NCBI GenBank assembly: GCA_001662655.1
Contig: KV460229.1
DNA: 64,000 nt
DNA from: Pseudogymnoascus verrucosus
Lineage: Eukaryota
Direction: 5' to 3' (one strand)
Part shown: one piece after another, positions 5,293 to 7,112 of the stretch
Layout of the letters: the number at the start of each line of letters is the position of its first letter
Position numbering within the stretch: position 1 is the first letter of the stretch
Position numbers and translations under genes: made by a program
Notes under the pieces: generated by a model
The model's input: only the letters and a program-made list of their open reading frames with translations
Told to the model about the DNA's origin: nothing
Databases searched by the model: none

Positions 5293-5374
5293 AATAACCC
5301 TTCTCGTAATAGCCAGCCCGTTCCCTGTCCTTCAATAACCCTTGTTGTAACAGCCTGCCCATTCCCTGTTCATT
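5293..5374. repeat. 41-bp tandem duplication (2 imperfect copies) at the 3' end of the secreted-protein gene
   Basis: aataacccttctcgtaatagccagcccgttccctgtccttc followed by aataacccttgttgtaacagcctgcccattccctgttcatt; the second copy overlaps the stop codon at 5370-5372. Confidence 0.8.
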
Positions 5375-5852
5375 TTCCAAGGCAGGATATAAGGTTGACA
5401 TACCATATTCCTGTCGAAGCTGTAATGCAAGCTGCTAGAGCGGGAATCCCTGCCAGTGGGACAGAAACTGCAGGTGGTCCAAATTTAAGAGAGCAGGCGG
5501 CGATCCCAGAAGCTAAGAAAACATTTGCGCCAATCGCACAACTTTCGCAGGTCGAATCAGTGCACTTCTTGGATGTCCCCCAAGGGAGGGATGAGATGTG
5601 AACTTCGTTGACATGTTTTGGCAGTGAATTAGCAAAGAGCTGAGCTTCGTGCAACGTGGTGAATGTTGGTGCAGTCTCCCGCTTGAATATTGAACCAACT
5701 TTGCTGAAGAGTTCAGATTGGCCGAGTTCAGTAAGCATATCTGCAAGCTCAAGCGGGGGGGTTTCGCCAGCTGGTATATTCAACAGTGGGATGTCGAAGG
5801 TTGAAGCAAGAGCTCCAGTCGCGAAGAGTGCAGTTATAAAAGCTAGCTTCAT
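5370..5852 (-). CDS. Secreted prepro-protein A (160 aa) with Kex2 site and C-terminal 6-Cys hydrophobic hairpin
   Basis: Real start is likely ATG 5852 (MKLAFITALFATGALA, signal peptide). IFKR|ETAP dibasic site. C-x4-C-x2-C-x14-C-x21-C-x14-C-LGK. The upstream part of the listed ORF looks like a 5'-UTR intron (about 5930-5872). Confidence 0.85.
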   Translation of the reverse strand: MKLAFITALFATGALASTFDIPLLNIPAGETPPLELADMLTELGQSELFSKVGSIFKRETAPTFTTLHEAQLFANSLPKHVNEVHISSLPWGTSKKCTDSTCESCAIGANVFLASGIAACSLKFGPPAVSVPLAGIPALAACITASTGIWYVNLISCLGK

Positions 5853-6662
5853 CGTGGCGAAATTTATCTGTCTGCAGTCAGTCCTGTTAAGATAATGCTT
5901 TAGAAACTTCAAGAAATGAAAAATACGTACTTAGGGTTTGGAGATGAACAGCTGAGGTCTCTAACATACATGCGTTTTCGAGGGTAAGCTAGGTTATAGA
6001 TTGCCTCAAAATGCTTTGCAGTAATGAAATTCAAGCTTCATAGTCACCTATGGGAGACTTTATACTTTTTATTACGAAAGTACAAACGCGAGGCTTACAC
6101 AATAAAACGAAACATAGCCCTAACTAAGATCATTTAGTAAGAGCACCGTTTTTTCCCGAGAACTGATGTGAAGCATTCGGCTTAGAGTTCAGTCAAGGGT
6201 AAATCGAGGGGCACAGTGTACCCTCAAATGAACAGACAGAAGTGTTTACGGTGCGGTTAAATCCGAATCGGTTCTAGAATAACTCGAGGACGGACCCAAA
6301 CGTTGCATACATTTCTCATTAGTTTGGAGAATCGCGAAATTGCGAATAATGTATCTATTTGTGCGTTGATTCGTGCCACTGCGAGGGAAGTGGTAGGAAA
6401 CATGTAGTCATGAAACTCACGTTGGCAGCTCTTTCACTGCTGAACCTTGCCATCCATATTGGTACAACTCGTTTGCTAGAGTAAATAATACCCCTCTACC
6501 ATACATGGAGACATATAAAGAGAGTTTTCCCATCTCTTCTCGATCTTACGTCTATGCACGCTATTCGGCACTGAACGATACACCACGCAGCACACAACCA
6601 AGTGCAAAAGTTTTACAATTACAATAATCGCCAATTCACTTCTACGTCCCAATCTCGTCACA

Positions 6663-7112
6663 ATGAAGACCATCGTTTTTATACTTAGCGGGCTCATCTT
6701 CGGCCTGACCTCTGCGCTCCCTCCGGCTGTCGATGTTAGAGATAGCATTGACCCTTCATCTGCTGCTTATCACCTCACTCGCGACGCGTCGCCGGTACCA
6801 CAGGACAACCTCCCTCTCGAGTGGCATAGCCTTGCTGAGCGCAGTACGCCCCCAAAGTTTAGTACTGTTCATCAATACATCGCTTTTGCAGAACAAGAAA
6901 AGAAGAAATACCCATCAGAGTGCTCCGAGACGAGCAGCCCCGAGGACTGCCAACTTTGTATTGGCGCCATTCTAGCCGCGTGGGTTAGTGCGTTATATCT
7001 CTGTGCTAGTCAAGTCGCTGCAGGCCCAGTTGGTACAGCCACTGGGCTAGTTTGTGCAGCCTCCGCTACTTCTTTATACTGGATTGGTCGGATTAAATGT
7101 CTCGGAGTTTAG
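6663..7112 (+). CDS. Secreted prepro-protein B (149 aa), paralogue of A
   Basis: Signal peptide MKTIVFILSGLIFGLTSA. LAER|STPP LxxR-type processing site. C-x8-C-x2-C-x14-C-x16-C-x14-C-LGV. TATAAA at about 6514. Confidence 0.88.
   Translation: MKTIVFILSGLIFGLTSALPPAVDVRDSIDPSSAAYHLTRDASPVPQDNLPLEWHSLAERSTPPKFSTVHQYIAFAEQEKKKYPSECSETSSPEDCQLCIGAILAAWVSALYLCASQVAAGPVGTATGLVCAASATSLYWIGRIKCLGV

What the first reader, a model, noticed from the sequence alone, without database searches (positions are those of the whole stretch)
5370..7112. Head-to-head pair of paralogous secreted disulfide-stapled hydrophobic hairpin proteins: candidate two-component fungal toxin or effector
Seen: two intronless genes diverge from one 810-bp promoter (ATGs at 5852 and 6663, each with its own TATAAA). 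Both encode a signal peptide, a pro-region, a Kex2-type site (IFKR / LAER) and a matching amphipathic segment (ETAPTFTTLHEAQLFA vs STPPKFSTVHQYIAFA). Both end in the same scaffold, C-x2-C-x14-C-x(21/16)-C-x14-C-L-G-x, whose inter-Cys segments are almost all small or hydrophobic residues. Sequence identity is otherwise low, so the duplication is old and both copies were kept. Established: head-to-head effector pairs that act together exist (Fusarium oxysporum AVR2/SIX5), Kex2-processed pro-domains are typical of fungal toxins and effectors, and two-peptide membrane toxins are common in bacteria. Inference: the two 14-residue spacers suggest nested C3-C6 and C4-C5 bonds stapling an antiparallel membrane-inserting helical hairpin. 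Co-expressed A and B could form a hetero-oligomeric pore or a toxin/partner pair. The segment LVCAASATS also recalls, from memory only, the helical 6-Cys Cbp1 lytic factor of Histoplasma.
Basis: partly seen in the sequence, partly recalled or inferred. Interest (0 to 1): 0.78.

Follow-up and report, generated by a model that had tools for sequence, protein, structure and literature searches.

The report
Paired orphan secreted helical fungal proteins
Two back-to-back genes in a Penicillium-like fungus encode old duplicates of a tiny, undescribed family of secreted, disulfide-locked, very greasy three-helix proteins; what they do is unknown, and nothing shows that they work as a two-part toxin.

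Summary
Gene A (5370-5852, minus strand, 160 aa) and gene B (6663-7112, plus strand, 149 aa) are uninterrupted ORFs that diverge from an 810-bp spacer. They are true paralogues (hhalign E 1.7e-9). Each has a signal peptide, a 42-residue pro-region ending in a Kex2-type site (IFKR / LAER = LxxR), and a mature domain with six invariant Cys, including two C-x14-C motifs.

AlphaFold2 models mature B confidently (pLDDT 80-94) as an antiparallel three-helix bundle. The pro-region is disordered. Helices 2 and 3 are apolar all round.

The family has no Pfam or PDB relative. A search of 1.84 billion representatives found only about nine proteins, which split into A-type and B-type clades. The fold is a generic helical bundle, and no link to Cbp1 or hydrophobins was found.

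The two-component toxin idea is untested and slightly weakened. A close relative carries B intact but has lost the start, signal peptide and core promoter of A. Other A-type models are often truncated or degenerate, whereas 4 of 4 B-type models are whole.

Best reading: a new family of Kex2-processed small secreted proteins. They probably act at membranes or other apolar surfaces, each on its own. Function remains inferred.

The parts
5370..5852 (-). Gene A, an uninterrupted CDS of 160 codons plus stop (A-type paralogue)
   Evidence: ORF list and sequence. Homologues are P0004/P0012 (Penicillium canescens, 70-75% identity) and P0005 (44%).
5805..5852 (-). A signal peptide, codons 1-16 (MKLAFITALFATGALA, cut predicted after ALA)
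   Evidence: Read from the sequence. The 19-residue Kyte-Doolittle peak is 1.63 at residue 3. The cleavage site is a rule-of-thumb call (-3/-1 rule); no SignalP was run.
5679..5804 (-). A pro-region, codons 17-58, ending in IFKR (canonical KR with Ile at P4)
   Evidence: Sequence. KR is kept in 4 of 5 A-type sequences. The motif definition comes from PMC8528282.
5373..5678 (-). A mature domain, codons 59-160. Cys at residues 97, 102, 105, 120, 142 and 157; apolar helices at about 100-124 and 135-158
   Evidence: Cys positions. Helices come from a low-confidence AlphaFold2 model (pLDDT 37), so they are indicative only. Homology to the confidently modelled B supports them.
5853..6662 (.). 810-bp divergent intergenic region, with TATAAA at 6059-6064 (minus strand, towards A) and at 6514-6519 (plus strand, towards B)
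5695..5989 (.). 295 bp missing (replaced by 2 letters) in a roughly 98%-identical relative (run X3). The loss removes A codons 1-52, part of codon 53, and 137 bp of 5' flank
   Evidence: table 5 (one 43.8-kb contig bridges the joint); the retained frame is open for only 17 codons upstream of the joint and has no in-frame ATG.
6663..7112 (+). Gene B, an uninterrupted CDS of 149 codons plus stop (B-type paralogue)
   Evidence: Homologues are P0002 (90%), P0006, P0008 and P0010 (36-39%).
6663..6716 (+). B signal peptide, codons 1-18 (MKTIVFILSGLIFGLTSA)
   Evidence: Sequence. The Kyte-Doolittle peak is 1.88. The cleavage site is a rule-of-thumb call.
6717..6842 (+). B pro-region, codons 19-60, ending in LAER (extended LxxR motif; the 90% orthologue has LAKR)
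   Evidence: AlphaFold2 pLDDT is below 50 for residues 1-31 and 33-59. PMC8528282 lists Glu among the tolerated P2 residues and Leu as the preferred P4 residue.
6843..7109 (+). B mature domain, codons 61-149: an antiparallel three-helix bundle (helices 69-82/85-89, 93-118, 122-148). Cys at residues 87, 96, 99, 114, 131 and 146
   Evidence: AlphaFold2 with an 8-sequence alignment gives block pLDDT of 80-94 from residue 61 on. The six Cys are invariant in 8 of 8 full-length members.

Best explanation
A and B are real, anciently duplicated genes of a previously undescribed and very narrowly distributed fungal family. The nearest named relative is a hypothetical protein of Penicillium canescens.

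Each gene makes a pre-pro-protein with three parts. First comes a signal peptide. Next is a roughly 42-residue disordered pro-region ending in a Kex2-type site (KR or LxxR). Last is a 90-100-residue mature domain. The mature domain folds as an antiparallel three-helix bundle held by three disulfides from six invariant Cys. Helices 2 and 3 each carry a C-x14-C motif and are apolar around their whole circumference for about 16 residues.

Shown here: the genes, the paralogy, the architecture, the Cys invariance, the confident helical model of B, and the absence of any known family.

Inferred: removal of the pro-region in the late secretory pathway releases a small, neutral, very greasy protein. 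It cannot bury its apolar hairpin as a monomer. It therefore self-associates or inserts into lipid or other apolar surfaces outside the cell. The most likely role is a membrane-active factor in microbial competition. The shared promoter would give co-regulation. Each paralogue probably works alone rather than as an obligate A+B complex.
For: Genes and paralogy.

Secretory pre-pro layout:
- N-terminal hydrophobic peaks are typical of signal peptides.
- An Arg lies 2-8 residues before the conserved P-x-F motif in 10 of 10 family sequences. An aliphatic residue sits at P4 in 8 of 10. KR occurs in 5 of 10 and ER in 3 of 10.
- This matches the KR/LxxR definition of Kex2-processed pro-domain proteins (PMC8528282, passages read).
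- AlphaFold2 confidence switches from below 50 to 80-94 exactly at the predicted cleavage site of B, residue 60/61.

Stapled hairpin:
- Six Cys are invariant, and both x14 spacers are kept in 8 of 8 full-length members, while the loop between them varies from 16 to 21 residues.
- Helices 93-118 and 122-148 are modelled at pLDDT 87-94.

Apolar all round:
- Helical hydrophobic moments are 0.04-0.15, with mean Eisenberg hydrophobicity of 0.35-0.57.
- Family-mean Kyte-Doolittle values are positive at every angular position of helix 2 between the two staple Cys, except for one small-residue column.
- The Cys domain has 28 small (AGST) plus 20 hydrophobic residues out of 63-64, and only 4-5 charged.

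Constraint: in the roughly 98%-identical relative, all three listed changes in mature B and both listed changes in the retained part of A are synonymous. The three amino-acid changes in B all lie in the signal peptide or pro-region.

Independence of the paralogues: the relative keeps B but has lost A's start. B-type models are whole in 4 of 4 other loci, against 1 of 4 for A-type.
Against: There is no functional or expression evidence of any kind.

The mature proteins are net neutral (A: 5 K+R against 5 D+E; B: 6 against 6). Most antimicrobial peptides are cationic (recalled).

The three-helix fold is generic and predicts no activity.

Only B has a confident model. A's model is unusable (pLDDT 37).

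Disulfide connectivity and exposure of the apolar surface were not checked on coordinates, because none are available.

The 19-residue Kyte-Doolittle peaks of the two helices reach the 1.6 transmembrane threshold in some members (up to 2.05), so a membrane-embedded rather than secreted state is not excluded.

The intactness asymmetry between A-type and B-type rests on automatic gene models from short contigs (1.5-17 kb).

The synonymous/non-synonymous counts are tiny, and the variant table was cut ('43 more are not shown').
Confidence: 0.4

Rival explanations
1. This is the first reader's reading: an obligate two-component toxin or effector pair. Co-expressed A and B would form a hetero-oligomeric pore or a toxin/helper complex through their stapled hairpins.
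For: The genes sit head to head with a shared 810-bp promoter region. Both paralogue types have been kept since before the split from the organism that carries P0005 and P0006. Those two are NCBI singletons whose only contig has the same length, 3222 bases, so they probably lie on one contig; this is an inference. Divergently transcribed fungal effector pairs that bind each other are known, namely Avr2/SIX5 and SIX8/PSL1 (PMC10942635, passages read). The helices are rich in small residues, as in helix-helix packing motifs of two-peptide bacteriocins (recalled).
Against: In a roughly 98%-identical relative, a 295-bp deletion removes A's start codon, signal peptide and most of the pro-region. 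No replacement ATG is present, and B is untouched. The P. canescens A-type models from two assemblies begin at the equivalent of Met41 and lack a signal peptide. P0007 departs from the family C-terminal to the C-x2-C, and P0011 has Tyr at two Cys positions. The known Fusarium pairs join members of two different structural families, not two paralogues.
Confidence: 0.12
2. These are surface-active or structural proteins rather than toxins. After secretion they would assemble at air-water or cell-wall interfaces, working like hydrophobins or repellents, or would bind apolar substrates.
For: The same apolar, small-residue-rich, disulfide-locked architecture fits this reading. So do the net neutral charge, the saprotroph-type genomic context with no neighbouring toxin or biosynthetic core genes, and Kex2 maturation, which is also used by the Ustilago repellents (recalled).
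Against: This is not a hydrophobin by sequence. It has six Cys rather than eight, no CC doublets conserved across the family, and no Pfam hit. The family is far too rare for a general structural role: about nine proteins among 1.84 billion representatives. One paralogue has been lost in a close relative.
Confidence: 0.2
3. These are small integral membrane proteins. After signal-peptide cleavage, helices 2 and 3 would span the membrane as a hairpin, and the protein would stay in the secretory pathway or the plasma membrane.
For: The 19-residue Kyte-Doolittle peaks are 1.63-2.05 for helix 2 in 4 of 8 members and 1.71-1.97 for helix 3 in 2 of 7 scored members. The low hydrophobic moments also fit. 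Several of the best structural alignments are to transmembrane helix bundles such as ArnT, complex I subunits and a lipid synthase, but only at non-significant Z of 8-9.
Against: Invariant Cys staple both ends of the hairpin. A transmembrane hairpin that follows a cleaved signal peptide would place the C4/C5 pair at the reducing cytosolic face (inference). The hydrophobic peaks fall below 1.6 in 4 of 8 members for helix 2 and in 5 of 7 for helix 3. The all-apolar stretch between the staples is only about 16 residues long. A conserved Kex2-type pro-region is typical of secreted proteins.
Confidence: 0.12
4. This is a protein-binding effector or inhibitor built on a helical bundle, for example an inhibitor of a competitor's or host's enzyme, in the way plant PMEI bundles act. 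On this reading the apolar surface is a protein interface.
For: PMEI bundles recur weakly in three searches: Foldseek E 2.9-5.2, VIA Z 7.0, and the Atlas structure search at TM 0.65 by query.
Against: All these scores are at the level the tools themselves describe as a common helical arrangement. PF04043 gave no hit. The Cys pattern of A and B was not compared with that of PMEI.
Confidence: 0.08

Closest known systems
Kex2-processed pro-domain (K2PP) fungal effectors, e.g. SnTox3, ToxA, SIX1/4/6 (PMC8528282, passages read)
   Same: The layout matches: signal peptide, a disordered N-terminal pro-domain in the first half of the protein, a KR or LxxR site, and a small disulfide-rich mature domain.
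   Different: K2PP is a maturation class, not a homologous family. The known members are mostly beta-rich folds from plant pathogens. Here the mature domain is an all-helical apolar bundle in a Penicillium-like genome. Processing has not been shown.
Divergently transcribed Fusarium oxysporum effector pairs Avr2/SIX5 and SIX8/PSL1 (PMC10942635, passages read)
   Same: Two small secreted-protein genes sit head to head on a shared promoter region.
   Different: The Fusarium pairs combine two unrelated folds (ToxA-like plus KP6-like family 4), and their interaction has been shown. Here the partners are paralogues of one fold, no interaction has been shown, and one partner is deleted in a close relative.
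Histoplasma Cbp1 (PF12192; PMC9255746, passages read)
   Same: It is also a small secreted helical protein with six Cys forming three intramolecular disulfides, and it is also lineage-restricted.
   Different: No sequence match was found by Pfam or by a PDB profile search. Cbp1 genes have two introns and occur only in Ajellomycetaceae. Cbp1 forms a 'binocular' dimer with a four-helix core, and no Cbp1 chain was among the listed fold matches. Cbp1 is not described as apolar all round.
Twin CXnC helix-loop-helix proteins of the mitochondrial intermembrane space (CHCH type; yeast Mic23 has CX13C/CX14C; PMC3518125, passages read)
   Same: The geometric principle is the same: two antiparallel helices each carry a C-xn-C pair, which allows two nested staples. 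Spacers of 13-14 residues are precedented.
   Different: Those proteins lack signal peptides, are oxidised by Mia40 in mitochondria and are hydrophilic. No CHCH Pfam hit was found here. The likeness is an analogy of design, not membership.
Helical membrane-active protein toxins: two-peptide (class IIb) bacteriocins, the yeast K1 killer toxin alpha subunit, and saposin-like proteins (all recalled, none tested here)
   Same: They share small-residue-rich apolar helices. K1 is also matured by Kex2, and saposin-like proteins are also disulfide-locked helices.
   Different: No sequence or fold match was found. The Cys patterns and helix numbers differ, and the mature proteins here are neutral rather than cationic. 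Activity is entirely untested.
Hydrophobins
   Same: They are also small, secreted, disulfide-rich, strongly apolar fungal proteins.
   Different: Hydrophobins have eight Cys with two CC doublets and a beta-barrel core (recalled). Here there are six Cys, an all-helical model and no Pfam hit.

Membership tests
K2PP (Kex2-processed pro-domain) secreted proteins | N-terminal signal peptide | tested here: met
   N-terminal hydrophobic peaks with small residues at -3/-1. This is a heuristic call only; no SignalP was run.
K2PP (Kex2-processed pro-domain) secreted proteins | KR, RR or LxxR motif in the first half of the protein, preceded by a disorder-prone stretch | tested here: met
   A has IFKR58 and B has LAER60. 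pLDDT is below 50 up to residue 59 of B and 80 or more from residue 61. P1 Arg is kept in 10 of 10 family sequences.
K2PP (Kex2-processed pro-domain) secreted proteins | Pro-domain absent from the secreted protein, or cleaved by Kex2 in vitro | not testable with these tools
   This needs mass spectrometry of the secreted protein or an in-vitro Kex2 digest.
Cbp1 (PF12192) | Match to the family HMM or to sequences of solved Cbp1 chains | tested here: not met
   No Pfam hit at E<=1 for A or B. PF12192 was not among the hits of 11 members at E<=10. The family profile gave 0 PDB sequences at E<=10.
Cbp1 (PF12192) | 'Binocular' dimeric helical fold | tested here: inconclusive
   No Cbp1 entry appears among the listed Foldseek or VIA rows. 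Absence from these lists does not exclude the fold, and only a monomer was modelled.
Hydrophobins | Eight Cys in the C-CC-C-C-CC-C pattern, and a family HMM match | tested here: not met
   Six conserved Cys, no family-wide CC doublet, and no Pfam hit.
Twin CXnC / CHCH hairpin proteins | Two C-xn-C motifs on the two helices of a helix-loop-helix | tested here: met
   C-x14-C occurs on helix 2 and on helix 3 in 8 of 8 members. Actual disulfide pairing was not tested.
Twin CXnC / CHCH hairpin proteins | Mitochondrial intermembrane-space protein without a cleavable secretory signal; CHCH HMM match | tested here: not met
   A secretory-type signal peptide is present, and no Pfam hit was found.
Interacting divergent effector pairs (Avr2/SIX5 type) | [quoted passage not shown] | tested here: met
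Interacting divergent effector pairs (Avr2/SIX5 type) | Both partners retained together across relatives | tested here: inconclusive
Against this, A's start is deleted in a close relative, and A-type models elsewhere are degenerate. DNA of the other loci could not be fetched.
Interacting divergent effector pairs (Avr2/SIX5 type) | Physical interaction or functional dependence of the two proteins | not testable with these tools
   This needs co-purification, size-exclusion chromatography, or genetics.

The most novel reading that the evidence does not exclude
The family is a new class of fungal proteinaceous membrane toxin. After Kex2 removes a protective pro-region, a helical hairpin stapled at both ends by twin C-x14-C disulfides inserts into target membranes and oligomerises into a pore. 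The A-type and B-type paralogues would act as a co-regulated pair that broadens or potentiates activity. That would make it a eukaryotic counterpart of the two-peptide bacteriocins.
Probability: 0.1. Interest if true: 0.75.

Novelty: new variant of a known kind. Interest (0 to 1): 0.35.

Why it matters
Fungal genomes hold very many orphan small secreted cysteine-rich proteins, so a new family alone is not remarkable. Three features set this one apart:
- an unusually clear design, with a disordered pro-region that ends exactly where a confident three-helix bundle begins;
- a hairpin with twin C-x14-C motifs that is apolar around its whole circumference;
- an old paralogue pair kept head to head.

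If the mature proteins prove to be membrane-active, they would be a compact new scaffold for fungal antimicrobial or lytic proteins. They would also be a tractable model for how a pro-domain keeps a greasy disulfide-stapled hairpin harmless during secretion. If they prove inert or structural, the locus is one more lineage-specific secreted-protein family.

Tried and rejected
- Complex prediction of mature A (59-160) with mature B (61-149): 'no answer', score 0.01 against a mark of 0.34. The controls were not run and my alignments were not used. This counts neither for nor against binding.
- Expression: no RNA holder was listed among 16 runs, so co-expression could not be examined.
- Runs X4, X10 and X5 gave only short, low-depth contigs (151-255 bases) over parts of the locus. 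They say nothing about expression or pair structure.
- Fetching DNA around homologues. (B-type alignment A4, metagenome contigs) matched 417 pattern stretches, none confirmed. (P0008 alone) matched 317, none confirmed.
- Own genome: none is held.
- Word-indexed protein searches found only self, P0002, P0004, P0006, P0008 and P0010. Searches for longer or shorter forms were not run, so fused or split forms are not excluded.
- P0009 (1334 aa, 11 matched stretches; its cluster includes gammaproteobacterial DUF4347 proteins) was set aside as a repeat-driven chance hit.
- AlphaFold2 on A with a 4-sequence alignment gave pLDDT 37.3 and is unusable.
- Fold searches. Foldseek against PDB gave 0 matches at E<=0.001, best E 0.92. 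VIA-wide gave a best Z of 8.9, with 3 of 48,161 chains at Z>=8, which is below the level the tool calls meaningful for helical bundles.
- ESM Atlas. Both A (by features, score 0.90, 182 of 256 shared) and B (by structure, TM 0.67 by query) point first to one unnamed 76-member Ascomycota cluster of 198-aa proteins. Its automatic name, 'Multiprotein-bridging factor 1', is not credible. Its sequences cannot be retrieved, so it stays a lead.
- GPI-anchor and CaaX readings of the conserved C-terminal C-L-G-x were considered and dropped. The tail is part of a conserved Cys-bearing helix, and prenylation is cytosolic whereas these proteins have signal peptides (inference).
- No third paralogue was found in the window by searching the family HMM against 865 six-frame ORFs.
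- Earlier findings of this scan: nothing was found.
- Literature. 'small secreted cysteine-rich' + Penicillium + helical + Kex2 gave 0 papers. 'CX14C' gave 18 papers; of the 10 listed, none concerns fungal secreted proteins by title. One search gave 2 irrelevant papers. I therefore found no description of this family, which is a weak negative.
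Full report
**1. What is in the sequence**

The window holds two uninterrupted ORFs at the stated coordinates. Gene A runs 5370..5852 on the minus strand and encodes 160 aa. Gene B runs 6663..7112 on the plus strand and encodes 149 aa. Their ATGs are 810 bp apart (5853-6662).

One TATAAA faces each gene. The first is at 6059-6064 on the minus strand, 207 bp upstream of A. The second is at 6514-6519 on the plus strand, 144 bp upstream of B. The hexamer is frequent in the window (42 matches, 24.7 expected), so it carries little weight.

Full-length homologues align end to end with both ORFs. This fits the reading that the genes have no introns.

**2. The two proteins are paralogues**

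- BLASTP gives E 2e-6 at 27% identity over 115 residues.
- A Smith-Waterman comparison of the mature parts scores 74. Shuffles give 29.6 +/- 5.7 with a maximum of 65, and 0 of 2000 reach the observed score.
- Comparing an A-type profile with a B-type profile gives 96.3% probability, E 1.7e-9, over 103 columns. The aligned part runs from the end of the pro-region to the C-terminus.

A clusters with P0005 at 44% identity. B clusters with P0006, P0008 and P0010 at 36-39%. A and B share only 21-27%. The duplication is therefore older than the split between these organisms.

**3. Architecture**

Both proteins start with a typical secretory signal. A begins MKLAFITALFATGALA and B begins MKTIVFILSGLIFGLTSA, with 19-residue Kyte-Doolittle peaks of 1.63 and 1.88. 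The cleavage sites are called by the -3/-1 rule only.

A 42-residue pro-region follows in each protein. It ends in IFKR58 in A and LAER60 in B.

Across the family, an Arg lies 2-8 residues before a conserved P-x-F motif in 10 of 10 sequences. The P2 residue is Lys in 5, Glu in 3 and Ala in 2. The P4 residue is aliphatic in 8 of 10.

A review of pro-domain processing (PMC8528282, passages read) gives the relevant rules for Kex2:
- P1 is almost always Arg.
- P4 prefers Leu or another aliphatic residue.
- Candidates are searched with KR, RR or LxxR.

So A has a canonical site and B an extended one. B's 90% orthologue P0002 has LAKR.

The mature domains have six Cys: residues 97, 102, 105, 120, 142 and 157 in A, and 87, 96, 99, 114, 131 and 146 in B. 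All six are invariant in 8 of 8 full-length members. So are both C-x14-C spacers, while the loop between them varies from 16 to 21 residues.

**4. Fold**

With an 8-sequence alignment, AlphaFold2 models B at mean pLDDT 69.7. The average hides a sharp division. Residues 1-31 and 33-59 (signal peptide plus pro-region) are below 50. Blocks from residue 61 on score 80-94.

The mature domain has helices at 69-82, 85-89, 93-118 and 122-148, forming an antiparallel three-helix bundle. The switch in confidence falls exactly at the predicted cleavage site.

A's model was made with only 4 sequences and is unusable (pLDDT 37.3). It does place helices at 100-124 and 135-158, over the two C-x14-C segments.

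The disulfide pairing is therefore untested. The nested C3-C6/C4-C5 pairing remains an inference from the equal spacers.

**5. Composition**

The two long helices are not amphipathic. Their helical moments are 0.04-0.15, at mean Eisenberg hydrophobicity of 0.35-0.57.

Taken over the family, every angular position of helix 2 between the two staple Cys has a positive mean Kyte-Doolittle value, except for one small-residue column.

The Cys domains have 28 small (AGST) and 20 hydrophobic residues out of 63-64, and only 4-5 charged. The mature proteins are net neutral.

In the model it forms the first helix of the bundle.

A three-helix bundle cannot bury helices that are apolar all round. This is the basis for inferring self-association or insertion into an apolar phase.

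The 19-residue Kyte-Doolittle peaks of the helices straddle the 1.6 transmembrane threshold. Helix 2 scores 1.31-2.05 and is at or above 1.6 in 4 of 8 members. Helix 3 scores 1.26-1.97 and is at or above 1.6 in 2 of 7 scored members.

**6. Relatives**

No Pfam family matches A or B at E<=1. Across 11 family sequences scanned at E<=10, four unrelated families hit one member each, with best E 0.052. The family profile finds no PDB sequence at E<=10.

A full HMMER search of 1.84 billion representatives found 10 proteins at E<=0.001:
- three were members of the query alignment (P0003 is A itself; also P0002 and P0004);
- six were new (P0005, P0006, P0007, P0008, P0010, P0011);
- one was a 1334-aa bacterial repeat protein, which I set aside.

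The only named relatives are hypothetical proteins of Penicillium canescens (P0004/P0012). That places the window in or near Penicillium; this is an inference.

Foldseek against the PDB gave no match at E<=0.001 (best E 0.92). The exhaustive VIA search gave a best Z of 8.9, in the range the tool calls a common helical arrangement.

The ESM Atlas pointed both A (by features, 0.90) and B (by structure, TM 0.67) to the same unnamed 76-member Ascomycota cluster of 198-aa proteins. I could not follow this lead.

**7. Is the pair a unit?**

For:
- The genes are head to head.
- Both types are old.
- P0005 (A-type) and P0006 (B-type) are each NCBI singletons seen on one contig of the same length, 3222 bases. 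They probably lie on one contig, which would make a second pair. This is an inference.

Against:
- A 43.8-kb contig of run X3 comes from a relative about 98% identical. It spans the locus but lacks 5695-5989, with two letters in their place.
- That loss removes A's codons 1-52, part of codon 53 and 137 bp of 5' flank.
- The retained frame is open for only 17 codons upstream of the joint and has no in-frame ATG. The remainder of A contains no Met.
- B is intact in that contig.

The listed differences in B are three amino-acid changes, all in the signal peptide or pro-region (T16I, A22V, S33A), and five synonymous changes, three of them in the mature domain. The two listed differences in the retained part of A are both synonymous. 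The variant table was cut, so these counts may be incomplete.

Among other loci, B-type models are full length in 4 of 4 (P0002, P0006, P0008, P0010). A-type models are full length in 1 of 4:
- P0005 is whole.
- The P. canescens models from two assemblies start at the equivalent of Met41, without a signal peptide.
- P0007 leaves the family shortly after the C-x2-C.
- P0011 lacks a signal peptide, has Tyr at two Cys positions and ends early.

These are automatic gene models on short contigs, so the asymmetry is soft evidence. Even so, it points the same way as the deletion: A-type genes are dispensable where B-type genes persist.

**8. Surroundings**

The neighbours are ordinary metabolic genes:
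- an O-methyltransferase (7420-8445, minus strand);
- an acyl-CoA dehydrogenase (9161-10707, minus strand);
- a fungal rhodopsin-domain gene (12379-13743);
- a P450 (15902-17244);
- a nitrate-reductase-type gene (18429-21549).

No backbone biosynthetic enzyme, toxin-related gene or further paralogue is in the window. The 5.3 kb to the left has no ORF with a Pfam match and a GC content of 40-48%.

**9. Comparison with known systems**

By maturation layout, the proteins fit the K2PP class of secreted fungal proteins. That class is a description of processing, not a homologous family, and processing is unproven here.

The head-to-head arrangement recalls Avr2/SIX5 and SIX8/PSL1. Those pairs join two different folds and are shown to interact.

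Cbp1 shares only the general description: a small, helical protein with six Cys in three disulfides. Every sequence test failed, and the fold tests were uninformative.

The twin C-xn-C hairpin principle is known from mitochondrial intermembrane-space proteins, including a CX13C/CX14C case. Those proteins are hydrophilic and are not secreted.

Comparisons with two-peptide bacteriocins, the K1 killer toxin alpha subunit, saposin-like proteins and hydrophobins rest on recall. They are functional analogies only.

**10. Verdict**

The functional part, a two-component toxin, is neither tested nor favoured.

The locus is a new, tiny family of Kex2-type small secreted proteins with an unusual all-apolar, doubly stapled helical hairpin. 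I rate it of moderate interest.

The most likely mechanism is membrane or apolar-surface activity of each paralogue on its own after the pro-region is removed. This is inference from composition and fold.

Noticed in passing
window 5695-5989: A roughly 98%-identical relative (run X3, 43.8-kb contig) has a 295-bp deletion here. The deletion removes gene A's start, signal peptide and 137 bp of upstream flank. The TATAAA at 6059-6064 and all of gene B are left intact.
   Followed up: yes
window 7420-8445 (-): An uninterrupted 341-aa ORF with O-methyltransferase and dimerisation domains (PF00891, PF08100) lies 307 bp downstream of gene B. No polyketide or peptide synthase is nearby in the window, so it does not look like part of a cluster with A and B.
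   Followed up: partly
window 1-5300: This stretch is gene-poor and lower in GC (0.40-0.48). Its ORFs of 100 aa or more (1621-2289, 2323-2754, 3781-4202) have no Pfam match. The A/B pair sits at the edge of this stretch.
   Followed up: partly
window 40139-42097 (-) and 42556-44322 (+): This is another head-to-head pair, but an ordinary one. One gene encodes a biotin carboxylase/biotinyl subunit and the other a carboxyltransferase subunit of an acyl-CoA carboxylase. They diverge from a spacer of about 460 bp.
   Followed up: no
window 18429-21549 (+): A nitrate-reductase-type gene in three exon-like ORFs: Mo-co binding and dimerisation, cytochrome b5, and FAD/NAD binding domains.
   Followed up: no
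window 12379-13743 (+): A fungal rhodopsin-domain (PF20684) gene split over three ORFs, which are presumably separated by introns.
   Followed up: no
protein P0011 (A-type relative, unnamed NCBI contig of 2433 bases): This sequence has Tyr where the family has its first and fourth Cys. It also lacks a signal peptide and ends early, so it looks like a decayed copy. Cys-to-Tyr changes are G-to-A transitions, as repeat-induced point mutation would give; that link is my inference only.
   Followed up: no
ESM Atlas: One unnamed cluster of 76 Ascomycota proteins of 198 aa is the top neighbour of A by language-model features (score 0.90). It is also the top neighbour of B by predicted structure (TM 0.67 over residues 68-149). 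It may be a larger, more distant sister family. Its sequences could not be retrieved.
   Followed up: partly
proteins P0006 and P0008 (B-type relatives): Each carries a seventh Cys inside an apolar helix (a CC doublet in P0006, and an extra Cys four residues after C3 in P0008). An odd Cys could allow intermolecular disulfides, as in the SIX8-PSL1 pair. The window's A and B have none.
   Followed up: no
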